Positions 8,258-62,104 of a stretch of 64,000 nucleotides of DNA are shown here, one piece after another. Made by a program: the position numbers and the translations under genes. The stretch's first letter is position 1; each line of letters opens with the position of its first letter. Source of the DNA: a virus (lineage: Duplodnaviria > Heunggongvirae > Uroviricota > Caudoviricetes); the IMG/VR virus record IMGVR_UViG_3300028571_000011; one strand, written 5' to 3'. Under the pieces are notes generated by a model. It searched no databases. It was not told the DNA's origin and saw only the letters and a program-made list of their open reading frames with translations.

Positions 8258-8333
8258 GGGTTGTAGGCCGAAGAGTGGAAGCGCTACCCTGTCGAGGTAG
8301 ACCAAGCGGGTTCAACTCCCGTGCAGCCCGCCA
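8258..8333 (+). tRNA. tRNA-Asp(GTC)
   Basis: acceptor GGGTTGT/GCAGCCC; anticodon stem CTACC/GGTAG; loop CTGTCGA; T-loop TTCAACT; CCA encoded. Confidence 0.6.
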
Positions 8334-9036: not shown

Positions 9037-9053
9037 GTTAGGAAAGATTGAAT

Positions 9054-9116
9054 GAGCCGAACGCAACTGAGGGTTACCTTTTTTGGAAACAACCCCTCAA
9101 CCGCAATCCCTTGCTC
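9054..9116 (+). ncRNA. Y RNA-like element Y1 (Ro-binding-stem mimic: 5' GAGCCGAA / 3' CTTGCTC, internal hairpin)
   Basis: terminal helix GAGC/GCUC + bulged C + GA/UU as in Y RNAs; internal TGAGGG/CCCTCA stem; follows tRNA-Arg. Confidence 0.55.
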
Positions 9117-9127
9117 ATTTATATTGT

Positions 9128-9697: not shown

Positions 9698-9756
9698 TGG
9701 AAGGACATCCCCTTGGTAAGGGGAAAACCCGAGTTCGATTCTCGGTGACGGCTCCA
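9682..9756 (+). tRNA. tRNA-Thr(GGT)
   Basis: GCCGTCA/TGACGGC; anticodon stem TCCCC/GGGGA; loop TTGGTAA; CCA. Confidence 0.75.
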
Positions 9757-9760
9757 CTCC

Positions 9761-9780
9761 GGTTCGTTCGTTCGTTCGTT
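9761..9780 (+). repeat. (GTTC)n microsatellite spacer
   Basis: GGTTCGTTCGTTCGTTCGTT between two tRNAs. Confidence 0.6.
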
Positions 9781-9783
9781 TGT

Positions 9784-9859
<76 letters not shown>

Positions 9860-10010: not shown

Positions 10011-10703
10011 ATGAAGACAGAAGCACACCAAGAAGCTATTCGCCTGCGAAGAGACGAACGTAAGTCGTTCAATGAAATCACAGACCTACTGGGGGTCTCA
10101 AAAGGAACTTTGAGTGGTTGGTTGAAAGATTACCCTCTGTCTCCTGAAGAGTCAGCGGCTAGAAGGTCATCCGCAGGCCGGTTGCTAAATCAGCGACGCA
10201 GACAGAAGTTTGAAGAAGTGGGCTATCCATTCGATATTCCTCAAGTAACAAAAAATCCTCGTCAAACCATAAAGCGGGCACCGAAACAGGTTGGCGAGAT
10301 CAGTGAGGCGATTGTAGCCGCCCGTCTGATGAAACTTGGTTTCAACCTTCTCAAGCCGATAGGCGACAGCCTGCGATACGACTTGATGATTGATTTCGAA
10401 GACTCTTTCTACCGCGTTCAGGTTAAAACAGCTAGGGTCGAGAATGGTGTCATAGACTTCAGTACGGTATCTTCTCAGGCTCATCGTGGTAAGGGTAAGC
10501 AATCCTACAAAGGACAGATTGAATGGTTCGCAGCCTGTGTGCAAGAAACGGAAGAAGTGTACATGGTACACATTGACAACCCTATCGCTAAGGGGCAAGA
10601 AGTAACCCTCCGTATATCACGTTCCATGACGACACCAACGGCGGAAAATAGAATCGCTATTAAATACATCTTGAATGATGTATGGACTCCAATTAATCAT
10701 TGA
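10011..10703 (+). CDS. putative homing endonuclease: N-terminal HTH + C-terminal PD-(D/E)XK-like nuclease domain
   Basis: ITDLLGVSKGTLSGWL HTH; then GE.SE...YDLMID...RVQVKT motifs; sits in the tRNA array. Confidence 0.5.
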   Translation: MKTEAHQEAIRLRRDERKSFNEITDLLGVSKGTLSGWLKDYPLSPEESAARRSSAGRLLNQRRRQKFEEVGYPFDIPQVTKNPRQTIKRAPKQVGEISEAIVAARLMKLGFNLLKPIGDSLRYDLMIDFEDSFYRVQVKTARVENGVIDFSTVSSQAHRGKGKQSYKGQIEWFAACVQETEEVYMVHIDNPIAKGQEVTLRISRSMTTPTAENRIAIKYILNDVWTPINH

Positions 10704-10776: not shown

Positions 10777-10784
10777 CAACATAC

Positions 10785-10839
10785 GAGCCGAACGCGACTG
10801 AGGATTATTTTTGCACAAACCCTCAATCACAATCACTCG
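10785..10839 (+). ncRNA. Y RNA-like element Y2 (degenerate 3' strand)
   Basis: GAGCCGAACGCGACTGAGG...CCTCAATCACAATCACTCG; follows tRNA-Asn directly. Confidence 0.4.
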
Positions 10840-10851
10840 TTTGTTTACCTA

Positions 10852-11349: not shown

Positions 11350-11434
11350 CTCAACTCTTATCCTCGAAAGGAGGAAATGCCATGCAAGCAGAAGACGATG
11401 AAGAAATGACAACCGAATCAGCCGCTGATTGTAT

Positions 11435-11509
11435 GACCATATCCTCCAATGGTTAAGAGCAGCCCCTTTCAAGGGAAGAATCAGAGTTCGATCCTCTGTA
11501 TGGTCACCA
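11435..11509 (+). tRNA. tRNA-Glu(TTC)
   Basis: GACCATA/TATGGTC; loop CTTTCAA; T-arm CAGAG/CTCTG; weak anticodon stem. Confidence 0.55.
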
Positions 11510-11510
11510 C

Positions 11511-11585
11511 GTCCCTATCGTCTAGCGGTCAGGACACTTGCTTCTCAAGCAGGGAACGAGATTTCGATTATCTCTGGGGACACCA
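11511..11585 (+). tRNA. tRNA-Glu(CTC)
   Basis: GTCCCTA/TGGGGAC; anticodon stem CTTGC/GCAGG; loop TTCTCAA; CCA. Confidence 0.75.
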
Positions 11586-11600
11586 GCACAACATTTAAGT

Positions 11601-11726
11601 GAGCCGAAAAGATTGCGTTACCATTCCAAGGCGAAGGTCGTGAGGTTCAACTCCACACCAGCCGCTCCATCATGCGGCTGTAGCTCAGCGTAGAGCGTCG
11701 TAAACCCGCAATCTAGTTACTTGCTC
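11601..11726 (+). ncRNA. YrlA-like Y RNA candidate Y3: Ro-binding-stem flanks (GAGCCGAA...CTTGCTC) enclosing a circularly permuted tRNA-like domain
   Basis: T-loop-like GGTTCAACTCC + acceptor 3' CAGCCGC-TCCA come before acceptor 5' GCGGCTG + D-arm TAGCTCAGCGTAGAGC; about 260 nt upstream of rsr. Confidence 0.55.
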
Positions 11727-11747
11727 ACTTGCCTTTTTAGAGTTTCC

Positions 11748-11814
11748 GAGCCGAATCCCAATGGATTACCTTTCTGCCTATGGCTTAAAATCACCCATTG
11801 GGGATCACTTGCTC
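11748..11814 (+). ncRNA. Y RNA-like element Y4
   Basis: GAGCCGAATCCCAATGG...CCATTGGGGATCACTTGCTC; internal stem shows compensatory changes relative to Y1. Confidence 0.55.
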
Positions 11815-11826
11815 GGACCGTTCGTT

Positions 11827-11902
11827 GCCGACATAGCTCAGTTGGTAGAGCAATTGTTTCGTAAGCAGTAGGTCCTCGGTTCGAATCCGAGTGTCGGCTC
11901 CA
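11827..11902 (+). tRNA. tRNA-Thr(CGT)
   Basis: GCCGACA/TGTCGGC; anticodon loop TTCGTAA; CCA. Confidence 0.8.
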
Positions 11903-11950
11903 CAGTTTAAGCTTGCTACTTGTCTTTGTCCGTGGTAATAGGTCGGTTAA

Positions 11951-11975
11951 CTTGCTCACAGGTGTGAGCCGAAAG
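11951..11975 (+). promoter_or_regulatory. hairpin in the rsr 5' leader made of the two Ro-binding half-motifs in inverted order (CTTGCTCACA-GGTG-TGAGCCGAAAG)
   Basis: lies directly upstream of the rsr ATG; could fold into a Y-stem mimic. Confidence 0.4.
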
Positions 11976-11984
11976 AAGGAATAC

Positions 11985-13730
11985 ATGAACATGTCCAACT
12001 ACTCCAAGCACTTCAACTCCAACAAGACGCCGCAGAACGAGCCCATTCCGGGTCGTGACATGGTGCAGAACGCGGCGGGTGGCTTCAACTTCGCCGTTGA
12101 CGACTGGGCACGGCTCCGTCGTTTCCTGATCCTCGGTACCGAGGGTGGTTCCTTCCATCAGAAGGAACAGAAGCTGACGAAGGAGAACGCGCAGGCGGTC
12201 CTTCGCTGCATCAAGACCGATGGTCCACGTGCGGTCAAGGAGATCGTCACCATCTCGGTGGAGGGTCGTGCTCCGAAGAATGACCCTGCGATCTTCGCTC
12301 TGGCCATGGCGCTCAAGCTCGGTGACGAGGCAACTCGCCGCTTGGCTTCCGACGCTGTCCCTGACGTGTGCCGCATCGGCACCCATGTGTTCCAGCTTGC
12401 AGAGGCTGTGAAGGCGTTCGGTGGCTGGGGTCGTACGACCGCTCGTGCATTCGCCAACTGGTACAACAAGCAGACGCCGGACAAGCTGGCGCTCAACCTG
12501 CTGAAGTACCAGCAGCGTGACGGCTGGTCGCACAAGAACTTGCTGTCGAAGTCCCACGCAGGTGGTTCGGCTCCGACGAAGTCTCACGCTGCGATGTTCA
12601 GCTACGTCATGCGCAACGGTGACCTGTCTGCTCGCAAGGTGGAGCGCAAGGTCAAGGGTAAGGTTCTGTCGGTCGGTGACTACAGCGGTCACAGCCGTGC
12701 TGACCTCCCTCGCTTGATTGAGGGCTTCGAGAAGGTCCGTGAGGGCGGTCTCACGGAGAAGATGGTTGCGAAGCTCATTCGTGACTACGACCTTCCTCGT
12801 GAGGTGATCCCGACCCAGTTCTTGAACAGCAAGGACGTCTGGGATGCTCTGCTTCACGCTGGCAAGCTCGGCATGCCCATCGGTGCCCTTGTCCGCAACC
12901 TCAGCAAGATGACGACGATTGGTCTCATCGCTCCCTTGAGCGACGCCACGTCCTTCGTTGCCTCGAAGCTGGATAGCGAGGAAGCCATCAAGCATGGTCG
13001 CATGCATCCCCTGTCCATCCTGCTTGCGTCTCGTACGTATGCACAAGGACACGGCGAGAAGGGCTCGCTCCAGTGGAAGCCTGTTCCTCAGGTTCTCGAA
13101 GCTCTCGACAAGGCTTTCTACCATGGATTCAAGTCTGTGGAGCCCACTGGCCTGAAGCATCTGACCGCTGTGGACGTCTCGGGCTCGATGCACTCCAGCC
13201 GGGTAGCCGGTGGACTGGTAACGAGCGCTGAAGCAGCAGCAGCAGTGGCTCTGGTGACGGCGAACGTGGAAAAGAACCATCACATGGTTTGCTTCACGAA
13301 CGGCTCACAGGGTGCTGGCGAGTACAAGTTCGGCAATGGTGCTTCTCGCTGGAGCCAAGTGAACAGCGGCATCAGCCCCTTCGACATCAACCCGCGCATG
13401 CGGTTGTCGGAAGTGGCAGCGAAGACCCGGAACATGCCGTTCGGCGGCACGGACTGCGCTCTGCCGATGTTGTACGCCCTCAAGAACAAGATTGAGGTCG
13501 ACGTCTTCATGGTGCTGACCGACAACGAGACTTGGGCAAACCCAGAAGTCCACCCGTCACAGGCCCTCAAGCTGTACCGGCAGGAGATGCAGCGTCCCGC
13601 GAAGCTGGTTGTTTTGGCCTTCGAAGCTTCCAACAATACGATCGCTGACCCGAACGACAGCGGCATGATTGACATCGTCGGTCTGGATACGTCCACCCCC
13701 GATTTGATCTCTGCCTTCGTTCGTGCTTGA
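11985..13730 (+). CDS. rsr: Ro60/Rsr ortholog (TROVE domain + C-terminal vWA with DVSGSM MIDAS), Y RNA-binding protein
   Basis: PGRDMVQNAAGGFNF..RFLILGTEGGS.H at the N-terminus; vWA MIDAS at the C-terminus; ATG at 11985 within the listed ORF 11913..13730. Confidence 0.85.
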   Translation: MNMSNYSKHFNSNKTPQNEPIPGRDMVQNAAGGFNFAVDDWARLRRFLILGTEGGSFHQKEQKLTKENAQAVLRCIKTDGPRAVKEIVTISVEGRAPKNDPAIFALAMALKLGDEATRRLASDAVPDVCRIGTHVFQLAEAVKAFGGWGRTTARAFANWYNKQTPDKLALNLLKYQQRDGWSHKNLLSKSHAGGSAPTKSHAAMFSYVMRNGDLSARKVERKVKGKVLSVGDYSGHSRADLPRLIEGFEKVREGGLTEKMVAKLIRDYDLPREVIPTQFLNSKDVWDALLHAGKLGMPIGALVRNLSKMTTIGLIAPLSDATSFVASKLDSEEAIKHGRMHPLSILLASRTYAQGHGEKGSLQWKPVPQVLEALDKAFYHGFKSVEPTGLKHLTAVDVSGSMHSSRVAGGLVTSAEAAAAVALVTANVEKNHHMVCFTNGSQGAGEYKFGNGASRWSQVNSGISPFDINPRMRLSEVAAKTRNMPFGGTDCALPMLYALKNKIEVDVFMVLTDNETWANPEVHPSQALKLYRQEMQRPAKLVVLAFEASNNTIADPNDSGMIDIVGLDTSTPDLISAFVRA

Positions 13731-13867: not shown

Positions 13868-13879
13868 CCAGATTTTGGA

Positions 13880-14010
13880 GAGCCGAAGAAGAAACGTTAA
13901 CAAAACAGCATGTCCTTGGTTCGAACCCAAGCATTGTGAACGCAAGTTCCTTTGTAGCTCAGCTGGAAGAGCAGCCGTCCACAAAACACGTTTCCTCACA
14001 ACTTGTTCTC
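13880..14010 (+). ncRNA. Y RNA-like element Y5 with internal T-arm-like (CTTGG TTCGAAC CCAAG) and D-arm-like (TAGCTCAGCTGGAAGAGC) modules in permuted order
   Basis: flanks GAGCCGAAG ... CTTGTTCTC; T-arm comes before D-arm as in Y3. Confidence 0.45.
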
Positions 14011-14039
14011 CTTAGCTTTTGACGAACCGAAGATTTGTA

Positions 14040-14092
14040 GGTTATCTTTTTGGAAGGAGTGGTCGCTGGTTCGAGTCCAGCCCTCCCCACCA
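14040..14092 (+). ncRNA. orphan tRNA 3' half (T-arm GCTGG TTCGAGT CCAGC + acceptor CCTCCCC-A-CCA)
   Basis: no complementary 5' acceptor upstream; the GGGGAGG partner lies downstream of Y6. Confidence 0.45.
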
Positions 14093-14095
14093 TAC

Positions 14096-14159
14096 GAGCC
14101 GAACGCAACCGCTGGGTTACCCTTGAAATGTACCCCCCAGCATCCGCAATCCCTTGCTC
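14096..14159 (+). ncRNA. Y RNA-like element Y6 (between the permuted tRNA halves)
   Basis: GAGCCGAACGCAACCGCTGGG...CCCAGCATCCGCAATCCCTTGCTC; compensatory GCTGGG/CCCAGC stem. Confidence 0.55.
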
Positions 14160-14167
14160 GTTCCCTT

Positions 14168-14200
14168 GGGGAGGTAGCTCAGTTGGTAGAGCACTAAACG
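14168..14200 (+). ncRNA. orphan tRNA 5' half (acceptor GGGGAGG + D-arm TAGCTCAGTTGGTAGAGC)
   Basis: perfect 7/7 complement to the 3' half at 14082..14088; no downstream T-arm. Confidence 0.45.
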
Positions 14201-14235
14201 TCTACGGTCATACCTTGTTCGTCATTCTTTTCTGA

Positions 14236-14336
14236 ACGCCCTTAGCTCAGTGGTAGAGCGGCACCTCGACAAGGTGAAGGTCACTGGTTCAATCCCAGTA
14301 GGGCGGTCACTGGTTCAATCCCAGTAGGGCGTACCA
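14236..14336 (+). tRNA. tRNA-Val(GAC) carrying a 26-nt tandem duplication of the T-arm/acceptor 3' segment
   Basis: ACGCCCT...anticodon loop TCGACAA...; GTCACTGGTTCAATCCCAGTAGGGCG occurs twice; second copy ends ...AGGGCGT-A-CCA. Confidence 0.6.
14280..14331 (+). repeat. tandem duplication (2 x 26 nt) within tRNA-Val(GAC)
   Basis: exact direct repeat at 14280..14305 and 14306..14331. Confidence 0.8.
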
Positions 14337-14343
14337 GTTCGTT

Positions 14344-14415
14344 GCGCTCGTAGCTCAGCGGTAGAGCATTCGGCTCATAACCGACCGTGCGTGGGTTCAA
14401 ATCCCTCCGGGCGCC
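14344..14415 (+). tRNA. tRNA-Met(CAT) copy 2
   Basis: GCGCTCG/CGGGCGC; anticodon loop CTCATAA; T-loop TTCAAAT. Confidence 0.7.
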
Positions 14416-14437
14416 CATTTCAAGTTCTTCAGTTTGC

Positions 14438-14499
14438 GAGCCGAATACGACCGAGGGTTACTTACCATTCAAGACACCCCTCAACAGTGAAACTTGCTC
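14438..14499 (+). ncRNA. Y RNA-like element Y7, followed by a weak hairpin + T-run
   Basis: GAGCCGAATACGACCGAGGG...CCCCTCAACAGTGAAACTTGCTC; follows the tRNA directly. Confidence 0.55.
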
Positions 14500-14537
14500 G
14501 CATCTTTTCGTGCGGTTTTAACCTAGTGTAAATTCGT

Positions 14538-14611
14538 GCGGGTGTGGTATAGTGGCCGTGCCTTAGCCTTCCAAGCTAATGACACCAGTTCGAGTCTGGT
14601 CATCCGCTCCA
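14538..14611 (+). tRNA. tRNA-Gly(TCC)
   Basis: GCGGGTG/CATCCGC; anticodon stem TTAGC/GCTAA; loop CTTCCAA; CCA. Confidence 0.75.
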
Positions 14612-14846: not shown

Positions 14847-15262
14847 GGGCTCAACCCGGTTTCGATTCGGGATGAAAAGCTAAGAAGTGCGTGTCGTGGT
14901 TGGCCGAAGGGCCACGTAAAAAATCGGTCAAAAACAATCAGCCAACGATAACATCGAAGGCGCTTCTTTCCGCATGGCTGCCTGAAAAGGTAGTCCTCGG
15001 TAAGAGGTGAGGGAACGGTTCTAGCGAACTTAGCTCCCCGTCGGGTCCAACAGAGAGCCTTCTGTAAAGGAACCCCGGCGTAAATCACTGAAGGCTAGGC
15101 GTTGATGGTGGTCGCGGCCATCAACGAGTAGAATCAAACAGCTGACCACCGAGTCTCGGACTCAACCTCATTGCCACGGTGGAGGTAAAAACTGCGGCTA
15201 CACACGTAGAGTTCTTCGTAATAGTCTTGAAGACGGGGGTTCGATTCCCCCTGAGTCCACCA
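14847..15262 (+). ncRNA. ssrA: tmRNA (SsrA); tag reading frame encodes (A)ANDNIEGASFRMAA
   Basis: 5' GGGCTCAACCCGGTTTCGATTCGGGAT tRNA-like end; 3' GACGGGGGTTCGATTCCCCCTGAGTCCACCA; tag ORF 14941..14985. Confidence 0.75.
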
Positions 15263-16471: not shown

Positions 16472-16477
16472 TTCAAC

Positions 16478-16536
16478 GAGCCGAATACGACCGAGGGTTA
16501 CCTGCATAAACTACCCCTCAACTGTGAACCTTGCTC
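16478..16536 (+). ncRNA. Y RNA-like element Y8
   Basis: GAGCCGAATACGACCGAGGGTTACC...CCCCTCAACTGTGAACCTTGCTC; follows the tRNA. Confidence 0.55.
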
Positions 16537-16578
16537 GTTGTCCCTTTCTCAAATGACCAGTTTAAAGGTGAAGAAGTA

Positions 16579-17244: not shown

Positions 17245-17636
17245 GCCTCCGTATCGGCTCTGACTTCTAATCTGAGTACCGTAACTGGACTTATGCAGGT
17301 TCGAGTCCTGCCGGGGGCACCATCTACGACCACGACACTCATTGGGTGTAGAACGGCCAAATGGAACGAGTTCGACCCTCGTATAGTCCACCAGTGGGCT
17401 ATGGTAGCGGACCGAGCCGGGTTCGACTCCCGGTACATCCACCAATGTCAGTGCGCTCGTAGTTCAGCTGGACGATTAAACGCGATTGGGTCACTACGTC
17501 AACTCTTTCTGCACTCGCAGCTGCTCAGGTACACACCAGAAGACTACAGTTATCACGCGCCCGTATTCCCTCGGTTTCCTAAACCGTTGAAAGGATAGTT
17601 GGATACACACAAGTTCGAGTCTTGTCGGGCGCGCCA
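17245..17636 (+). pseudogene. cluster of about 4 degenerate tRNA-like units, each ending in a T-arm + acceptor + CCA (ends at 17322, 17393, 17444, 17636)
   Basis: canonical T-arms (GCAGG TTCGAGT CCTGC; ACGAG TTCGACC CTCGT; CCGGG TTCGACT CCCGG; ACAAG TTCGAGT CTTGT), but no canonical D/anticodon arms could be folded. Confidence 0.4.
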
Positions 17637-17771: not shown

Positions 17772-18356
17772 ATGACCGCTCAAATTCTCGTCCTCAACAA
17801 GCAATGGGCTCCCGTCGGGATCGCTGACTTGGAGCGTGCAATGGGTCTGCTCTGCACTGGAGCAGCCAAGGCGTTGGACAAGGAACATCAGATGTACGAC
17901 TTCGCGTCGTGGTCTGAACTCCGTGCTGAGTATGGGGACGCCACCGTCTCGACGCCCAACAGGGTGATCAAGATTCCTACCATCTTGGTGCTTCAGGTCT
18001 ACGACCGTCTGCCGCACATGCGAGTTCGTTTCTCGCGCAATGCTGTCTACCTGCGTGACAACTTCACGTGTCAGTACTGCGCCAAGAAGTTCCCTCGTCA
18101 GTCACTGAACCTTGACCATGTCGAGCCTCGTTCTCGTGGCGGTCGCACCAGCTGGACCAACATCGTTTGTGCCTGCTACCCGTGCAACACCAAGAAGGGA
18201 GACAAGACGCCTGCTGAAGCCGGTATGCCTCTGCTCAAGAAGCCCGCCAAGCCTCGTGTCAGTGGTCTGAATCTCGGTCGTGCAACGCCAGCTGAGTGGC
18301 TGCCGTTCATCGACCCAGTGTCAGCTGCATACTGGAATTCGGAACTCGAAGAGTGA
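17772..18356 (+). CDS. HNH endonuclease (McrA-like)
   Basis: CQYC...LNLDHVEPRSRGG..N..CACYPCNTKK. Confidence 0.7.
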   Translation: MTAQILVLNKQWAPVGIADLERAMGLLCTGAAKALDKEHQMYDFASWSELRAEYGDATVSTPNRVIKIPTILVLQVYDRLPHMRVRFSRNAVYLRDNFTCQYCAKKFPRQSLNLDHVEPRSRGGRTSWTNIVCACYPCNTKKGDKTPAEAGMPLLKKPAKPRVSGLNLGRATPAEWLPFIDPVSAAYWNSELEE

Positions 18357-27727: not shown

Positions 27728-28486
27728 ATGAAGCCGAACATGCGCTCCGACAACCGATATACAAAAGAGATTCTTGAAGAATCAGTGAAGAGAAATGAGA
27801 CATGGGCAGGTGTCATTCGTGACCTGAAAGGAACCGGCAGCCACGGCGGTGGTCTACATGCGCATCTGAGGGGCAGAGCGGAGGCTATGGGTATTGACTA
27901 TAGTCACTTCAAGGGGCGTAGCTGGAGTAGGGGGACACCAAGTCCAAAGCGGGTCGGAGCAGAGGATATTCTTAAAAGGCAGCATGGCGAGCGCTTGAAG
28001 CCTCCCGCTACACACTACCTGAGAAAATCCTTACTGGAGATTGGTGTACCACATCGATGTTCACTTGAAGGCTGTCCAGTGGGAACAACGTGGAACAGTA
28101 AAGAGTTGGTGTTGCAGGTCGATCACATCAACGGTGATAAGTTTGATTGTCGGGCAGAAAATCTGCGGTTCATTTGCCCAAACTGCCACTCTCAAACCTC
28201 GAACTGGGGTATAAAGAATAGCAAAGGCTACAACATCGAACCGACTATCTGCCAAGGGTGCAGCCGAGAAACGAAAGAAAGAGGGTCGACACGATGTGCG
28301 TCGTGTGCTCAGAAGGAGGCCAGCAAGACAAGAGCAGCAAATCAAGAACGAATTAGCTGGCCTTCAATCGAACAGTTACAGAGTATGATGACTACCATGT
28401 CGATGGTGGCGATTTCAAAGCAACTCGGCTGTTCAGACAACGCTGTCAGGAAGTTTATGAAGAAGAAAGGCGCATGGGTAAAGTAA
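27728..28486 (+). CDS. HNH endonuclease
   Basis: LQVDHINGDKFDCRAENLRFICPNCHSQ. Confidence 0.65.
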   Translation: MKPNMRSDNRYTKEILEESVKRNETWAGVIRDLKGTGSHGGGLHAHLRGRAEAMGIDYSHFKGRSWSRGTPSPKRVGAEDILKRQHGERLKPPATHYLRKSLLEIGVPHRCSLEGCPVGTTWNSKELVLQVDHINGDKFDCRAENLRFICPNCHSQTSNWGIKNSKGYNIEPTICQGCSRETKERGSTRCASCAQKEASKTRAANQERISWPSIEQLQSMMTTMSMVAISKQLGCSDNAVRKFMKKKGAWVK

Positions 28487-53028: not shown

Positions 53029-54489
53029 ATGACTTTTCCAATCTCTCCCACTCTTCGTGTCATGCTGGAAGCTATCGTCGCTTCTGGTGGTCGTCCTGCC
53101 ATCATCGGCGGCTCCGTTCGTGACTGGGTCTTGGGTCTGGAGCCCAAGGACATCGACGTCGAGGTCTACGGCTTGGACGTGGCTGACTTGGAACTCGCCC
53201 TGTCGAAGTTCAAGGTTGACGCTGTCGGTCGTGCCTTCGGTGTCTTCAAGGTGACCATCGAAGGTGAGACGTTTGACGTTTCGCTTCCTCGTCGCGAGTC
53301 CAAGGAAGGCCATGGCCACCGTGGCTTCATGGTGTCCTCTGACCCGACGATGACTCCCGAAGAGGCTGCTCTTCGACGTGACTTCACGGTCAACACTCTT
53401 GGCTGGGACTTCATCGACGGCAAGCTGATGGACTTCCACGGCGGCATGGCTGACATCAAGGCCAAGGTTCTGCGTCACACCAGCCCAGCTTTCGCTGAGG
53501 ATCCTCTTCGTGTGCTGCGTGGCTGTCAGTTCGCTGGTCGCTTCGGCTTCACCATGGACGGAGACACCATCGACATGTGCCTCAGCCTCACTGAGGAGCT
53601 TCGTACGCTCCCTGTAGAGCGGCTGTGGACTGAGTGGGTCAAGCTCCTGACGAAGAGCCCCAAGCCCTCTGTGGGCCTGACAGCGCTGGTTGAGACCGGT
53701 GCCATCGAGGTCTTCCCCGAAGTGAAGGCGCTGCTGTACGTTCCTCAGGAGCCTGAGTGGCATCCAGAAGGTCAGGACCACCCGTTGGGCAGTCTCTGGG
53801 TGCACAACTGCATGGTCACGGACATGGCTGTTCGTGTGCTGGACGATGATGGTGTCACTGACGCTGAGGAGCGTTTGATCATCATCCTCGGTGCCTTCTG
53901 TCACGACTTCGGCAAGCCTGCCACGACTGTGTTCGAGCGGGATCGCTGGCGGTCTTTGGCCCATGAGGAAGCCGGTGAAGCTCCGACTCGAAGCTTCCTG
54001 ACCCGGATTGGTGCGCCGCACCACATCATCGAGGCAGTTGTGCCTCTGGTGATGCAGCACCTCAAGCCTTTCCACTTGGCTCGTGACAAGGCTAGCAGTG
54101 GTTCTGTCCGTCGCTTGGCGCTGAAGGTTCCTCTGGAGCGTCTGTGTCGTGTGGGTCGTGCTGACTTCTTGGGTCGGACCACTCCTGACGCTCTGGCCAT
54201 CACGGACAGCCGTGAGGTTGAGGAGACGAAGTGGCTTCTGGAACGGGCAATCGAACTTGCGGTTCGTGACTCTGCTCCTCAGCCTCTCGTCATGGGTCGT
54301 CATCTGATCGATGCTGGCATGAAGCCGAGCCGAGAGTTCGGCGAGGTCCTCAAACGAGCGTTCGAGTACCAGCTGGACGGCTTCATCTTCGACGAGGAGT
54401 CGGCCCTTCGCTTCGTGAAGGAGAAGGTTGTGGTGACGGATGATGGCCATGGGCAGGTTGTGGATGGCTGGACCGGTACTTGCGGCTGA
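53029..54489 (+). CDS. cca: CCA-adding tRNA nucleotidyltransferase with a C-terminal HD domain
   Basis: IIGGSVRDWVLGLEPKDIDVEV polymerase-beta head; RRDFTVNTL; HD motif FCHDFGKP. Confidence 0.85.
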   Translation: MTFPISPTLRVMLEAIVASGGRPAIIGGSVRDWVLGLEPKDIDVEVYGLDVADLELALSKFKVDAVGRAFGVFKVTIEGETFDVSLPRRESKEGHGHRGFMVSSDPTMTPEEAALRRDFTVNTLGWDFIDGKLMDFHGGMADIKAKVLRHTSPAFAEDPLRVLRGCQFAGRFGFTMDGDTIDMCLSLTEELRTLPVERLWTEWVKLLTKSPKPSVGLTALVETGAIEVFPEVKALLYVPQEPEWHPEGQDHPLGSLWVHNCMVTDMAVRVLDDDGVTDAEERLIIILGAFCHDFGKPATTVFERDRWRSLAHEEAGEAPTRSFLTRIGAPHHIIEAVVPLVMQHLKPFHLARDKASSGSVRRLALKVPLERLCRVGRADFLGRTTPDALAITDSREVEETKWLLERAIELAVRDSAPQPLVMGRHLIDAGMKPSREFGEVLKRAFEYQLDGFIFDEESALRFVKEKVVVTDDGHGQVVDGWTGTCG

Positions 54490-58757: not shown

Positions 58758-59084
58758 ATGACATTGAAGTACATGCCAGTTGAAGAGTTCTTGCGTCTTG
58801 GTTACCTGCAGGAGTTGAATCGTCAGTTCCTCCACCCACTTGGTCTGGCCATCATCGTCAACATCGACGACGACGGCACTCACACGTTGGGCGCAATCTG
58901 GGATTGCCGCGAAGACCCTGAGGGCATCTATTTCAATGAAGGAGTTCTCAACAAGGAGAAAGCTTCCTTCATCGAAAAGGAGTTTCTGGTCAGGTGGGGG
59001 ACTCGTGCTGCTGCACTTGGCTTTGCCATTCAGCCCGTACCAACCCCAGCCATCGAGCCTGAACCAGAGGTTGACAAGATCTGA
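58758..59084 (+). CDS. hypothetical protein
   Basis: 108 aa. Confidence 0.45.
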   Translation: MTLKYMPVEEFLRLGYLQELNRQFLHPLGLAIIVNIDDDGTHTLGAIWDCREDPEGIYFNEGVLNKEKASFIEKEFLVRWGTRAAALGFAIQPVPTPAIEPEPEVDKI

Positions 59085-59106
59085 CTATAAAGCGAGCTTA
59101 CGCGTT

Positions 59107-60135
59107 ATGACACCAGTAACACGTAAGCTCGCTTCAATCGTTTCCATCTTGTCTGTGGAGCCGGTCCCCAACGCTGACCGCTTGGAGAAGATCGGTAGTC
59201 TCGGCTACCAAGTCGTTTCAGAGAAGGGGCGATGGTCTGTCGGAGACATGGCTGTCTACTTCGAGGCCGACTCTGTGCTGCCGGACATCGACGCCCTTCG
59301 CTGGGTCTGGACCCCGAAGGACACGCCACCAGACGTCAAGGTGCCTCGTCCAGCGGACCAGCGTCTCCGTGCCGTCCGTCTTCGCGGTTGCCTCTCCATG
59401 GGCATCTTGCTGAAGTTGCCAGAGCTTGGACTTGATCCGAAGGACTTCAAGACTGGTGACGATGTCACGAGCTTGCTTGGAGTCACCCAATTTGAGGAAG
59501 ACTCCTCGGATGAAGCCTTCCGTGCGCCATTCCCGTCCTTCGTGTCGAGGACCAGCGAGATGCGCGCTCAGAGCCTCCCAGACGTCCTGAAGGAGTTGGC
59601 TGGCAAGGCTTGGGTGGCCACGCTCAAGATCGACGGGCAGAGCCTCACAGCTTATCTAGATGCTGGTGATCTTCACGTCACTGGTCGGAAGCATTCGATC
59701 CTTGAGTCCGATGTGCCGCACTGGCGAGTGGCCCGGAAGTACAAGCTGCAGGATGTCCTGAGAGAAAACCCTCACCTCGTGATCCAAGGTGAAGTCGCAG
59801 GCCCCGGCATCTTGGGCAACAAGCTCGAACTCAAGGAGCACGACTTCTTCGTGTACAACATCCACCACAAGCAGGAGGACCGACTGTTCCTTGATGCTGA
59901 GATGCGCGAGTTCTGTGCTGACCATGGGCTGAAGGCTGTACCGAAGGTTGCTGAAGGTGTCGAGTTCTCCAAGACGATGGATGAGCTTCAGGAGCTTTCA
60001 GCTGGCAAGTACGAAGGTACCAACCGGAATCGGGAAGGCATCGTTGTGCGGCCTCGTGATGAATTGATCCGATCAGACACCGTCGGCAAGTGGCTGTCCT
60101 TCAAGATGATCAACAACTCTTCCCTCGTGAAGTGA
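59107..60135 (+). CDS. ATP-dependent RNA ligase (covalent nucleotidyltransferase superfamily)
   Basis: motif I TLKIDGQS (KxDG); motif IV-like EGIVVRP; motif V-like KWLSFK; ATG at 59107 inside ORF 58840..60135. Confidence 0.65.
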   Translation: MTPVTRKLASIVSILSVEPVPNADRLEKIGSLGYQVVSEKGRWSVGDMAVYFEADSVLPDIDALRWVWTPKDTPPDVKVPRPADQRLRAVRLRGCLSMGILLKLPELGLDPKDFKTGDDVTSLLGVTQFEEDSSDEAFRAPFPSFVSRTSEMRAQSLPDVLKELAGKAWVATLKIDGQSLTAYLDAGDLHVTGRKHSILESDVPHWRVARKYKLQDVLRENPHLVIQGEVAGPGILGNKLELKEHDFFVYNIHHKQEDRLFLDAEMREFCADHGLKAVPKVAEGVEFSKTMDELQELSAGKYEGTNRNREGIVVRPRDELIRSDTVGKWLSFKMINNSSLVK

Positions 60136-61237: not shown

Positions 61238-62104
61238 ATGAACACTGCCGTCGTCATCTACCACAAAGACTGCCCAGATGGGCTCACAGCCGCCGTTGCG
61301 GCATGGCTGAAGCTGAAGGACACCGCTGTCTATATCCCGAGGCACTACAACGAGCCACGCGACGACGACGCCTACAGGGGCAAGGACGTCTACGTCTTGG
61401 ACTTCTCATTCTCGTTGGAAGCGACACGACGGGTCGATGAAGTGGCCAAGAGCCTGACCATCCTCGACCACCACAAGACGGCTTTCGACAACCTGAATGG
61501 CACGAAGTACGCGGAGCGCCTTCGCATGGATCAGTCCGGCGCGCGTCTGGCGTGGGAGTTCTTCCATCCCGGCATCCCGTGCCCCAACATCGTCGACTAC
61601 GTCGAGGACAACGATTTGTGGCGGCACAAGCTCCCGCACTGGGAAGAGGTGAAGGTTGCTGGAGAGATGGTGTCCCTCAAAGACCCGGACGCAATCAACC
61701 GGTGGGCGGCTTTCGCTGACCGGTTGGCCAACGACTTCAACGGCGTTGTCGTGCAGGGCACAGCCATCGTCGAGTACCGCAACATCCTCATCCAGCGCAT
61801 GTGCAATGAACCCGGCTTCGCGCTCTTGGCAGGCCACAAGGTTCCCTGCGTCAACACCGGAAGCTGGCAGTCCGAGGTCGGCAACCTCCTGAGCAAGGAG
61901 CATCCGTTCGCGATCATCTGGCGCGCGGACAAGGAGGGGCGCTTCCTCTACTCCCTGCGCTCCGACAACACCCGGCACGAAGCCGTTGACGTCTCTGAGG
62001 TGGCCAAACTCTTCGGCGGCGGCGGGCACAAGAATGCAGCTGGCTTCACCAGCAATGCACCGCCCATGATGGTGAAACCAGACTCGGTCATGGTGCGTTC
62101 GTAA
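61238..62104 (+). CDS. DHH/DHHA1 phosphoesterase (NrnA-like nanoRNase / pAp phosphatase)
   Basis: DHH motif LDHHKT; Asp-rich N-terminal motifs; DHHA1 GGGGHKNAAGF. Confidence 0.8.
   Translation: MNTAVVIYHKDCPDGLTAAVAAWLKLKDTAVYIPRHYNEPRDDDAYRGKDVYVLDFSFSLEATRRVDEVAKSLTILDHHKTAFDNLNGTKYAERLRMDQSGARLAWEFFHPGIPCPNIVDYVEDNDLWRHKLPHWEEVKVAGEMVSLKDPDAINRWAAFADRLANDFNGVVVQGTAIVEYRNILIQRMCNEPGFALLAGHKVPCVNTGSWQSEVGNLLSKEHPFAIIWRADKEGRFLYSLRSDNTRHEAVDVSEVAKLFGGGGHKNAAGFTSNAPPMMVKPDSVMVRS

What the first reader, a model, noticed from the sequence alone, without database searches (positions are those of the whole stretch)
11601..11726. YrlA-like chimeric RNA with a circularly permuted tRNA-like domain immediately upstream of rsr
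Between the GAGCCGAA / CTTGCTC flanks, the sequence has a tRNA 3' half followed by a 5' half. The 3' half is a T-loop-like GGTTCAACTCC, then acceptor 3' strand CAGCCGC, then TCCA. After an 8-nt loop comes the perfectly complementary acceptor 5' strand GCGGCTG and a D-arm GCTC-AGCGTA-GAGC. A tRNA-like domain (acceptor/T/D) whose anticodon arm is replaced by the Ro-binding stem is what defines bacterial and phage YrlA Y RNAs. In linear sequence this gives the permuted order seen here.
Basis: partly seen in the sequence, partly recalled or inferred. Interest (0 to 1): 0.85.

Follow-up and report, generated by a model that had tools for sequence, protein, structure and literature searches.

The report
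Phage Y RNA with tRNA-like domain
This is a real but expected kind of small RNA: a phage copy of the bacterial "YrlA" Y RNA, a docking stem for the Ro60 protein fused to a tRNA look-alike, encoded 262 bases upstream of the phage's own Ro60 gene inside a large tRNA gene cluster.

Summary
Window 11599-11728 (+) folds as a YrlA-class Y RNA. It has a terminal Ro60-binding helix (GAGC-C-GA / UU-GCUC), a second stem, UUAC, a small hairpin, a T arm, a 7-bp acceptor-like stem-loop and a D arm.

A covariance model built only from 20 YrlA-like RNAs of other loci scores it 86.3 bits (E about 7e-20, full length). The best tRNA-tRNA junction in the window scores 37.7 bits. Rfam's YrlA model gives only 20.3 bits (threshold 69). 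It also fails on the phages tested here, including ET08, in which YrlA was first reported (36-42 bits).

The Ro60 gene (rsr, 11991-13730) lies 262 nt downstream on the same strand.

Particular features are a genome-encoded UCCA opening the acceptor loop, a 6-bp T stem and a short D loop. With the Ro arm removed and the ends re-joined, the sequence reads as a complete tRNA-Gly(UCC).

It is a new member of a known kind. The surroundings are more notable. There are at least 8 further Ro-binding modules in the tRNA array, one nested inside another. A Y-RNA-like hairpin sits over the rsr ribosome-binding site. The phage also encodes a CCA-adding enzyme and an RNA ligase.

The parts
11599..11728 (+). 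Whole YrlA-like Y RNA (minimum extent; true transcript ends unknown)
   Evidence: Model R1 match 86.3 bits, E 6.9e-20, positions 1-128/128. Rfam YrlA aligns 11600-11730 full length, 20.3 bits.
11599..11608 (+). 5' strand of the Ro60-binding helix P1: GUGAGC, bulged C11605, G11606, A11607 (contains GAGCCGAA / GNCGAA motif)
   Evidence: Pairs with 11721-11728. GAGCCGAA occurs 12 times in the window against 2.6 expected, 0/100 shuffles. The helix covaries in the family.
11720..11728 (+). 3' strand of P1: C-UU-GCUCAC (CTTGCTC motif)
   Evidence: With the 5' strand it gives GAGC-C-GA/UU-GCUC, the same layout as the metazoan GGUC-C-GA/UU-GACU helix (own knowledge).
11611..11617 (+). P2 stem, 5' strand GAUUGCG (pairs with 11707-11713 CGCAAUC)
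   Evidence: All 7 P2 pairs show double changes in the family. The sister strain has A11711G, which keeps a U.G pair.
11707..11713 (+). P2 stem, 3' strand CGCAAUC
11618..11621 (+). Conserved YUAY (UUAC)
   Evidence: Invariant TTA in family alignments A2/A3. Defined in Chen 2014.
11621..11631 (+). 'V' hairpin = anticodon-like stem-loop: CC / AUUCCAA / GG (tRNA positions 30-40; loop has U33, UCC, A37, A38)
   Evidence: Register and loop signature across the family: Y32 66/84, U33 55/84, R37 73/84, A38 60/84. ARAGORN on the re-permuted sequence calls tRNA-Gly(tcc).
11632..11634 (+). CGA, tRNA positions 41-43, pairs with UCG 11698-11700 (positions 27-29): 3-bp stub of the anticodon stem
   Evidence: These pairs were not in model R1 yet are 77.5% paired with many double changes in 135 family members. 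Not favoured by nearest-neighbour energy.
11635..11639 (+). Variable loop AGGUC (C11639 = C48, Levitt partner of G15 = G11688)
   Evidence: Read from the sequence. GGTC is conserved in A2/A3.
11640..11658 (+). T arm: GUGAGG / UUCAACU / CCACAC (6-layer stem with an A11643.A11655 mismatch)
   Evidence: one inserted base on each strand. The sister strain has A11643T, which makes a perfect 6-bp stem. Only about 5 of 120 family members have a 6-nt T-stem strand.
11659..11680 (+). Acceptor-like stem-loop: CAGCCGC (66-72), U73-CCA 11666-11669, UCAU, GCGGCUG (1-7)
   Evidence: 7 Watson-Crick pairs. The AS helix has double changes in 6 of its 7 pairs in seed alignment A3 and in all 7 in the larger family alignment A4. 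Encoded CCA at this place occurs in 38/120 family members.
11681..11696 (+). U8 A9 and D arm GCUC / AGCGUA / GAGC (6-nt D loop with a single G)
   Evidence: A 6-nt D loop occurs in only 3/120 family members.
11991..13730 (+). rsr (Ro60 ortholog), the presumed protein partner
   Evidence: Pfam TROVE 3.3e-38 and vWA_Ro60 5.2e-55. NCBIfam Rsr 3.4e-134. The start follows the gene call of the 99%-identical P0001.

Best explanation
Window 11599-11728 encodes a YrlA-class bacterial/phage Y RNA.

Shown by sequence and comparative analysis:
- Its 5' and 3' ends pair into a bulged helix (GAGC-C-GA / UU-GCUC) of the type that Ro60 proteins bind.
- Its interior folds as a tRNA-like module with T arm, 7-bp acceptor-like stem-loop and D arm, and all the usual tertiary-contact bases except one D-loop G.
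- A short anticodon-like hairpin is present.

Inferred from the family's biology:
- It is transcribed with the surrounding tRNA array and rsr as part of a long precursor and trimmed out.
- The phage Ro60 (11991-13730) binds the terminal helix.
- The tRNA-like end serves as a nuclease-resistant handle that recruits a host partner. PNPase was shown for D. radiodurans, Salmonella and Thermus phage phiLo. Another elbow-recognising tRNA-binding factor is also possible. Either would redirect Ro60 and an exonuclease during infection.

The acceptor stem has 7 bp and is followed by an encoded U-CCA. It therefore most resembles M. smegmatis YrlA. It is probably cut by RNase P between 11673 and 11674 and kept CCA-ended by the host or phage CCA-adding enzyme. 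That would give a two-piece RNA held together by its helices.
For: - Independent model R1 (seed: 20 elements from other phage and metagenome Ro60 loci, none from this phage): 86.3 bits, E 6.9e-20, full length. The best tRNA-junction false hit scores 37.7 bits.
- Seed structure: 90.9% of cells paired against 73.2% in shuffles, and 21/31 pairs with compensatory changes. On 135 family members the figure is 91.8% against 67.4%.
- Rfam YrlA aligns it end to end.
- The three differences in the sister strain all preserve or improve the structure or lie in a linker: A.A to U-A in the T stem, U-A to U.G in P2, and +A in a linker.
- Ro60 gene 262 nt downstream on the same strand.
- Family members are found on the Ro60 strand in nearly every related locus.
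- A CCA-adding-enzyme homolog (53029-54489) and an RNA ligase (58840-60135) are encoded in the window.
Against: - There is no expression, binding or processing data for this element.
- Rfam's curated threshold is not reached (20.3 against 69 bits).
- The GNCGAA motif is followed by AAG rather than N0-1G.
- The T stem has six layers (13-bp acceptor/T stack instead of 12) with an A.A mismatch in this strain, and the D loop lacks one of the two elbow guanines. RNase P and CCA-enzyme recognition could therefore be impaired.
- No promoter or terminator signal stands out nearby, so transcript ends are unknown.
- The window holds two other YrlA-like RNAs, so this copy could be redundant.
Confidence: 0.85

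Rival explanations
1. It is a decaying remnant of two tandem tRNA-Gly genes (3' half of one, 5' half of the next) with no Ro60-related function. The resemblance to YrlA only reflects that origin.
For: Tandem isoacceptor tRNAs in this window mimic the T-acceptor-D order and score up to 37.7 bits with R1 (9729-9811, 14277-14388). The element keeps an encoded UCCA and a 4-nt spacer like a tRNA-tRNA junction. Its best tRNA match is the window's tRNA-Gly(gcc), 59/76. A dimeric-tRNA origin of YrlA is proposed in the literature.
Against: The outer half is not tRNA-derived junk. It forms P1 and P2 with the Ro-binding motif pair that recurs 9 times on this strand. Its score is 49 bits above the junction background. 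No upstream D arm or downstream T arm remains, and ARAGORN and Rfam call no tRNA here. The sister-strain changes respect the helices.
Confidence: 0.05
2. It is a circularly permuted tRNA-Gly(UCC) gene. The Ro-binding arm is excised, the ends are ligated (for example by the phage RNA ligase) and the acceptor loop is opened, which yields a working tRNA.
For: After removing 11701-11620 (the arm) and re-permuting, ARAGORN at default settings calls a 76-nt tRNA-Gly(tcc) with CCA. The phage encodes an RNA ligase and a CCA enzyme. Wang et al. raise this possibility for YrlAs.
Against: No bacterial enzyme is known that would excise such an arm. The window already has an ordinary tRNA-Gly(tcc) at 14538-14611. 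The 'anticodon' triplet drifts freely among otherwise orthologous family members. ARAGORN still-49 of 120 constructs when positions 30-43 are shuffled, so the call is a weak test. The arm carries a conserved Ro-binding site, which a spacer to be discarded would not need.
Confidence: 0.04
3. It is a cis-acting part of the rsr leader (a processing or regulatory structure of the rsr mRNA) rather than a free small RNA.
For: Same strand and 262 nt upstream of rsr, with no terminator between them. A Ro-helix mimic does sit in the rsr leader at 11949-11975.
Against: A tRNA gene (11827-11902) lies between it and rsr and would be excised from any common transcript. Equivalent elements in relatives lie downstream of rsr or elsewhere in the array, so position relative to rsr is not conserved.
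Confidence: 0.03

Closest known systems
Mycobacterium smegmatis YrlA (Chen et al. 2014, PMC4201824)
   Same: Same module order (Ro motif, stem, YUAY, V, T, acceptor-like stem-loop, D). It has a 7-bp acceptor-like stem, the feature that makes the M. smegmatis RNA an RNase P substrate that then carries CCA. It is encoded upstream of rsr with a second shorter Y RNA between them and is processed from one precursor.
   Different: Here the full U-CCA is genome-encoded, whereas in M. smegmatis CA is added. Both strands of the Ro helix are recognisable, whereas only the 5' strand is in M. smegmatis. The T stem is 6 bp and the D loop is 6 nt. No experimental data exist for this element.
Mycobacteriophage ET08 / cluster C and other actinophage YrlAs
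   Same: Phage-encoded, next to a phage Ro60 gene, with the same architecture. The ET08, Cashline and Sparky elements score 87-97 bits with R1, similar to this one. They too fall below Rfam's threshold (36-42 bits).
   Different: The Ro60 proteins are only about 40-43% identical and there is no DNA similarity. Those elements have closed acceptor loops without CCA and 5'-motif variants (GGCCGAG, GGGCCGGAG, GAGCCGGA). This phage carries many more Y modules.
Salmonella Typhimurium YrlA (Rfam RF02553; crystal structure PDB 6CU1)
   Same: tRNA-like L-shape predicted from the same conserved bases: U8, A14, G15-C48, T54-A58, G53-C61.
   Different: The Salmonella RNA has a 6-bp closed acceptor stem, is not cut by RNase P, has no V hairpin, and is under RtcR control. 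The Rfam model built around it gives this element only 20.3 bits.
Thermus phage phiLo Yrl1/Yrl2 with phiRo60 (PMC12135203)
   Same: Phage Ro60 with Y-like RNAs encoded upstream, recognised through the CGAA motif in a 5'-3' stem. Shown to assemble with host PNPase. This is the best experimental precedent for the proposed mechanism.
   Different: As far as that paper describes them, those RNAs are stem-bulge-stem Y RNAs with no tRNA-like domain. They resemble the short modules here more than the element in question.
Metazoan Y RNAs (e.g. human Y1)
   Same: Terminal bulged helix with the same layout (GGUC-C-GA / UU-GACU against GAGC-C-GA / UU-GCUC), followed by a stem and a GUUAUC-like sequence (own knowledge; motif comparison).
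   Different: No tRNA-like domain. Pol III transcripts with La-binding U tails.
Circularly permuted tRNA genes of Cyanidioschyzon merolae and some archaea
   Same: The 3' half precedes the 5' half, the acceptor stem is initially closed by a loop, and the outer ends pair.
   Different: Those are matured into real tRNAs by the splicing endonuclease and a ligase. No such pathway is known in bacteria, and here the outer helix is a conserved protein-binding site.

Membership tests
YrlA Y RNA (Chen et al. 2014) | GNCGAAN0-1G motif near the 5' end | tested here: inconclusive
   GCCGAA at 11603-11608 matches GNCGAA, but it is followed by AAG, one base more than N0-1G. The identical GAGCCGAA core is shared by 9 modules on this strand.
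YrlA Y RNA (Chen et al. 2014) | Conserved T stem-loop (GGUUCRAnnCC) 5' of the D stem-loop | tested here: met
   GG-UUCAACU-CC at 11644-11654, aligned to the T arm by Rfam YrlA and R1. Deviation: 6-layer stem with an A.A mismatch.
YrlA Y RNA (Chen et al. 2014) | Conserved D stem-loop (UAGCUCA...GAGC) | tested here: met
   UA-GCUC-AGCGUA-GAGC at 11681-11696. The D loop is one G shorter than usual.
YrlA Y RNA (Chen et al. 2014) | [quoted passage not shown] | tested here: met
   7 bp 11659-11665/11674-11680, formed in the MFE fold. The corresponding helix covaries: double changes in 6 of 7 pairs in A3 and in all 7 in A4.
YrlA Y RNA (Chen et al. 2014) | YUAY followed by a V stem-loop upstream of the T arm | tested here: met
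   UUAC 11618-11621, then hairpin CC-AUUCCAA-GG 11621-11631.
YrlA Y RNA (Chen et al. 2014) | tRNA tertiary-contact bases, including the Levitt pair G15:C48 (or A15:U48) | tested here: met
   Read from the sequence: U8 11681, A14 11687, G15 11688 with C48 11639, A21 11692, U54/A58 11646/11650, G53-C61 11645/11653. Only one of G18/G19 is present.
YrlA Y RNA (Chen et al. 2014) | Encoded within 4 kb of a Ro60/TROVE gene on the same strand | tested here: met
   rsr 11991-13730 (+), 262 nt downstream.
YrlA Y RNA (Rfam RF02553) | Score at or above the curated gathering threshold (69 bits) | tested here: not met
   20.3 bits, E 0.085 on 451 nt. The test lacks power for phages: the ET08, Cashline and Sparky YrlAs reach only 37.4, 42.2 and 36.6 bits.
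YrlA Y RNA (family model built here) | Significant full-length match to a covariance model built without this sequence | tested here: met
   R1: 86.3 bits, E 6.9e-20, positions 1-128/128.
YrlA Y RNA (Chen et al. 2014) | Bound by Rsr in vivo; pseudouridine 55 by TruB and dihydrouridine by DusA | not testable with these tools
   Needs immunoprecipitation and modification mapping.
M. smegmatis-type YrlA | Cleaved by RNase P at the 5' side of the acceptor strand and carrying 3' CCA | not testable with these tools
   The prerequisites are present (7-bp stem, encoded UCCA 11666-11669), but the 13-bp acceptor/T stack may shift or weaken cleavage.
Canonical tRNA gene | Detected by tRNA finders in native order | tested here: not met
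   No ARAGORN or Rfam tRNA call at 11599-11728.
Circularly permuted tRNA gene | Re-permuted sequence forms a complete cloverleaf with an anticodon arm | tested here: inconclusive
   With the Ro arm removed, ARAGORN at default settings calls tRNA-Gly(tcc). With the arm kept, a call appears only at a relaxed threshold. The shuffling control shows ARAGORN is permissive. Maturation to a tRNA is untestable here.

The most novel reading that the evidence does not exclude
The element is a complete tRNA-Gly(UCC) in disguise. It has G1:C72, C2:G71, G3:C70, U73 and C35-C36 in a 7-nt U33/A37 loop, which is the E. coli-type GlyRS identity set as I recall it. It also has an encoded CCA. The Ro60-binding arm is grafted into the 5' strand of the anticodon stem. 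After RNase P opens the acceptor loop it would be a two-piece, CCA-ended RNA that might be charged with glycine. Such an RNA could couple the phage Ro60 to tRNA-handling machinery (aaRS, EF-Tu, ribosome, anticodon nucleases) and not only to PNPase. More generally, the 'V arm' of YrlAs would be a retained anticodon stem-loop, not a variable arm.
Probability: 0.1. Interest if true: 0.8.

Novelty: new member of a known kind. Interest (0 to 1): 0.38.

Why it matters
On its own this adds one more phage YrlA to a family described in 2014, so it is confirmatory.

It is useful as an entry point. This uncultured tRNA-rich phage packs a Ro60 gene, three tRNA-like Y RNAs, about six minimal Y modules, a tmRNA, 28 tRNAs, a CCA-adding enzyme and an RNA ligase into one region. 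That makes it a compact natural system for asking what Ro60/Y RNPs do during infection.

Three things seen on the way would interest specialists if confirmed:
- An encoded NCCA in many acceptor loops.
- An anticodon-like 'V' hairpin.
- A Y-RNA mimic over the rsr ribosome-binding site.

They bear on how Y RNAs arose from tRNAs and how Ro60 levels are set.

Tried and rejected
- Rfam at gathering thresholds found no YrlA anywhere in the window. Only the permissive search did.
- Megablast of 11400-12100 against 50,697 phage records found nothing.
- A viral-contig scan with the Ro60 protein found nothing. Relatives had to be reached through the protein database and metagenome contigs.
- ARAGORN on the native sequence, and on the re-permuted sequence with the Ro arm kept, finds no tRNA at default settings.
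- The promoter/terminator scan gave no excess over shuffles and nothing next to the element.
- RNAalifold on a plain MAFFT alignment recovered only the T arm, the D arm and part of the acceptor-like stem. The structure had to be annotated by hand.
- Nearest-neighbour energies do not favour the anticodon-like arm: -35.7 kcal/mol with it, -36.2 without, MFE -43.8. That arm rests on comparative evidence only.
- The idea that the loop triplet and the discriminator base follow tRNA identity rules across the family was rejected. Orthologous acceptor stems carry CAU, GAU, CCU, ACG and other triplets with U73.
- Two reviews that might state prior knowledge (PMC10870794, PMC6047535) are not held. The supplements of Chen 2014 are not held either.

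Full report
**What is there**

The window is a phage-like region. It has 28 tRNA genes and a tmRNA and homing endonucleases inside the tRNA array. It has no nucleotide match among 50,697 phage records.

The ORF 11991-13730 (+) is a Ro60 ortholog. Pfam gives TROVE 3.3e-38 and vWA_Ro60 5.2e-55. NCBIfam gives Rsr 3.4e-134. The best matches among known phages are actinophage Ro proteins at about 40-43% identity.

**Is it more than chance?**

The MFE fold of 11601-11726 forms the outer stems, a T hairpin, the 7-bp helix 11659-11665/11674-11680 and the D arm, with z = -2.4.

Rfam's YrlA model (RF02553) aligns 11600-11730 over its full length. It scores only 20.3 bits against a gathering score of 69. 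That threshold is not informative for phages. The YrlA of mycobacteriophage ET08, one of the founding examples, scores 37.4 bits. Those of Cashline and Sparky score 42.2 and 36.6.

I therefore built an independent test.
- Ro60 relatives at 44-99% identity were collected.
- Twenty YrlA-like elements from other loci were aligned. They came from three related phage contigs, Gordonia phage Cashline and metagenomic Ro loci. None came from this phage or its sister strain.
- A hand-annotated structure (P1, P2, T, acceptor-like stem, D) was 90.9% paired against 73.2% in shuffles. Compensatory changes occurred in 21 of 31 pairs.
- The resulting model R1 scores window 11599-11728 at 86.3 bits, E = 6.9e-20, matching positions 1-128 of 128.
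- Junctions between neighbouring tRNA genes share the T-acceptor-D order. They reach at most 37.7 bits.

**Anatomy** (coordinates)

| Feature | Coordinates and sequence |
|---|---|
| P1 | 11599-11604 with 11723-11728; bulged C11605; then G11606.U11722 and A11607-U11721 |
| P2 | GAUUGCG 11611-11617 with CGCAAUC 11707-11713 |
| YUAY | UUAC 11618-11621 |
| Hairpin | CC-AUUCCAA-GG 11621-11631 |
| Stub strand | CGA 11632-11634 |
| Variable loop | AGGUC 11635-11639 |
| T arm | GUGAGG-UUCAACU-CCACAC 11640-11658 |
| Acceptor 3' strand | CAGCCGC 11659-11665 |
| Acceptor loop | U-CCA 11666-11669, then UCAU |
| Acceptor 5' strand | GCGGCUG 11674-11680 |
| Positions 8-9 | UA 11681-11682 |
| D arm | GCUC-AGCGUA-GAGC 11683-11696 |
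| Position 26 | G 11697 |
| Stub partner | UCG 11698-11700 |

P1 has the same layout as the conserved Ro-binding helix of animal Y RNAs (GAGC-C-GA/UU-GCUC). Chen et al. state that only the 5' strand of this helix is recognisable in the Salmonella and M. smegmatis RNAs. Here both strands are.

The bases for the usual tRNA tertiary contacts are present: U8-A14, G15-C48, T54-A58 and G53-C61. Only one of G18/G19 is present.

**Close relatives**

Two contigs carry a 99%-identical Ro60 and the same element with three differences.
- A11643T turns the A.A mismatch of the T stem into U-A.
- A11711G turns a U-A pair of P2 into U.G.
- One A is inserted in a linker.

These are too few to prove selection, but none disrupts a helix.

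The most similar element in a different phage lineage is L011 3416-3543 (Ro60 63% identical). It has different P2, acceptor and stub sequences that pair all the same. It lies downstream of rsr, so position within the array is not conserved.

**Where it departs from the family norm**

- Only about 5 of 120 members have a six-nucleotide T-stem strand. Acceptor plus T then stack to 13 bp rather than 12.
- Only 3 of 120 have a six-nucleotide D loop.
- The encoded NCCA at the start of the acceptor loop is not unique. It is present in 38 of 120 members, and the loop-length distribution peaks at 7 nt, the length of an NCCA-plus-3-nt loop.
- The GNCGAA motif is followed by two bases rather than zero or one before the G.

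**The hairpin called 'V'**

In the higher-scoring family members, the hairpin's 3' strand plus the next bases make exactly five nucleotides before a five-nucleotide variable loop. The loop has seven nucleotides. It carries Y32 (66/84), U33 (55/84), R37 (73/84) and A38 (60/84).

The three bases after position 26 pair with the three bases before the variable loop. These pairs were not in model R1. They are nevertheless 77.5% paired and show many double changes.

Together these give a 5-bp anticodon-like stem whose 5' strand is interrupted by the Ro-binding arm.

For this element, deleting the arm and re-joining at the acceptor loop yields a 76-nt sequence. ARAGORN calls it tRNA-Gly(tcc) at default settings. 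The most similar tRNA in the window is tRNA-Gly(gcc), 59/76 identical.

Caveats:
- ARAGORN is permissive. It of 120 real constructs with a standard anticodon, against 39-49 when positions 30-43 are shuffled.
- The triplet varies among orthologous elements.
- Nearest-neighbour energy does not favour the arm.

I treat this as a moderately supported refinement. It is compatible with the published idea that YrlAs descend from dimeric tRNA transcripts.

**How it most likely works**

Shown here: the structure, the family membership and the linkage to rsr.

Inferred from characterised relatives:
- The RNA is cut out of a long tRNA/Y RNA/rsr precursor. No promoter or terminator stands out nearby. M. 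smegmatis YrlA and YrlB come from one precursor.
- The phage Ro60 binds P1.
- The tRNA-like module stabilises the RNA and recruits a partner. PNPase was shown for D. radiodurans and Salmonella and for a Thermus phage Ro60 with its Y-like RNAs.
- With a 7-bp acceptor stem, the element is the M. smegmatis type. That type is cleaved by RNase P and carries CCA.
- The window encodes a CCA-adding-enzyme homolog and an RNA ligase. Both fit a tRNA-maintenance setting.

**Rivals**

- A dead tandem-tRNA remnant is unlikely. The outer helices, the motif pair and the 49-bit margin over the junction background all argue against it.
- Maturation into a real tRNA-Gly is unlikely. There is no known excision pathway, an ordinary tRNA-Gly(tcc) lies at 14538-14611, and the arm carries a conserved protein site.
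- A purely cis-acting leader role is unlikely, because a tRNA gene separates the element from rsr.

**Verdict**

Phage YrlAs, their resemblance to permuted tRNAs and the RNase P/CCA variant are all published. This is therefore a new member of a known kind, of moderate interest. The context is richer than the element itself (see the items noticed in passing).

Noticed in passing
window 14022-14222 (nested module 14094-14161): This is a third YrlA-like RNA and the best R1 hit in the window (94.3 bits). Its acceptor-like stem is CCUCCCC-ACCA ... GGGGAGG, and a complete short Y module (GAGCCGAA...CUUGCUC) sits inside its loop as a 75-nt insertion. The same nested arrangement (hits of about 200 nt) recurs in L004, L007, L009, L010, L014, L016 and others. 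Family acceptor-loop lengths cluster at 76-83 nt in 9 members. RNase P and CCA-end processing of the outer RNA would release the inner one.
   Followed up: partly
window 13878-14010: A second YrlA-like RNA lies just downstream of rsr (R1 65.7 bits; T arm CUUGG-UUCGAAC-CCAAG, D arm GCUC-AGCUGGAA-GAGC). Its acceptor-like stem pairs poorly. Rfam YrlA gives 20.8 bits.
   Followed up: partly
window 9052-9118, 10783-10843, 11746-11816, 14094-14161, 14436-14501, 16476-16538: Six short (about 60-70 nt) Y-RNA-like modules are interspersed among the tRNA genes. Each has the GAGC-C-GAA / CUU-GCUC helix, an inner stem and a GGGUUAY loop start, and no tRNA-like domain (YrlB-like). The outer two base pairs covary among 11 copies from 6 loci. 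GAGCCGAA occurs 12 times in the window against 2.6 expected.
   Followed up: partly
window 11949-11975 (rsr leader); also L004, L007, L008, L010, L011, L014, L017, L018, L021, L042, L049, L064: A hairpin presents the Ro-binding helix in inverted order (CUUGCUCAC-aggu-GUGAGCCGAAAG) directly before the rsr Shine-Dalgarno sequence and start codon. The same design was found upstream of Ro60 genes in 18 of 87 loci. The stems covary (CUCAC/GUGAG, UCCGG/CCGGA, CCCAC/GUGGG, CCCGCA/UGCGGG and others) while CUUG and CCGAA stay fixed. It looks like a Y-RNA mimic through which Ro60 could repress its own translation. I found no report of this.
   Followed up: partly
family alignment A4 (135 elements from window and L001-L096): The 'V' stem-loop of YrlAs has the register and loop signature of an anticodon stem-loop (7 nt, Y32 U33 R37 A38). 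A covarying 3-bp stub joins positions 27-29 to 41-43. This suggests the Ro arm is inserted into the anticodon stem rather than replacing it. The published structure paper says YrlA lacks an anticodon loop.
   Followed up: partly
family alignment A4: 38 of 120 YrlA-like elements have a genome-encoded NCCA right after the acceptor 3' strand, typically in a 7-nt loop (NCCANNN). This fits an origin of the acceptor-like stem from the acceptor strands of two tandem tRNA copies rather than from the spacer between them.
   Followed up: partly
window 53029-54489 (+), 58840-60135 (+), 61238-62104 (+): Three RNA-maintenance genes are present. One is a CCA-adding/repair enzyme homolog (PolyA_pol head, RNA-binding and HD domains; NCBIfam CCA addition/repair 1.1e-55). 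One is an ATP-dependent RNA ligase of the DRB0094 type (2.5e-36). One is a DHHA1-domain protein.
   Followed up: partly
window 10011-10703, 17772-18356, 27728-28486: PD-(D/E)XK and HNH endonuclease genes sit between tRNA genes and are probably homing endonucleases. HNH genes also flank the arrays in L009, L014 and L016.
   Followed up: no
window 8258-8330, 17245-17319, 17344-17444: Rfam finds two weak tRNA matches (33.4 and 31.9 bits) that ARAGORN does not call. It also finds a partial tmRNA/mascRNA-like tRNA-like match at 17344-17444. These may be degenerate tRNAs or further tRNA-like RNAs.
   Followed up: no
window 14847-15262: A phage-encoded tmRNA (137 bits) with the unusual tag GQKQSANDNIEGASFRMAA. 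The sister contig L004 has it too.
   Followed up: no
L097, L098 (genome contigs): In the species-representative genome collection (GTDB) searched, the closest Ro60 relatives (57-60% identity) lie on contigs binned as Myxococcota and Bacteriovoracaceae MAGs. This is a weak hint about the host range of this phage group. Ro60 genes at 44-50% identity are spread over many phyla.
   Followed up: no
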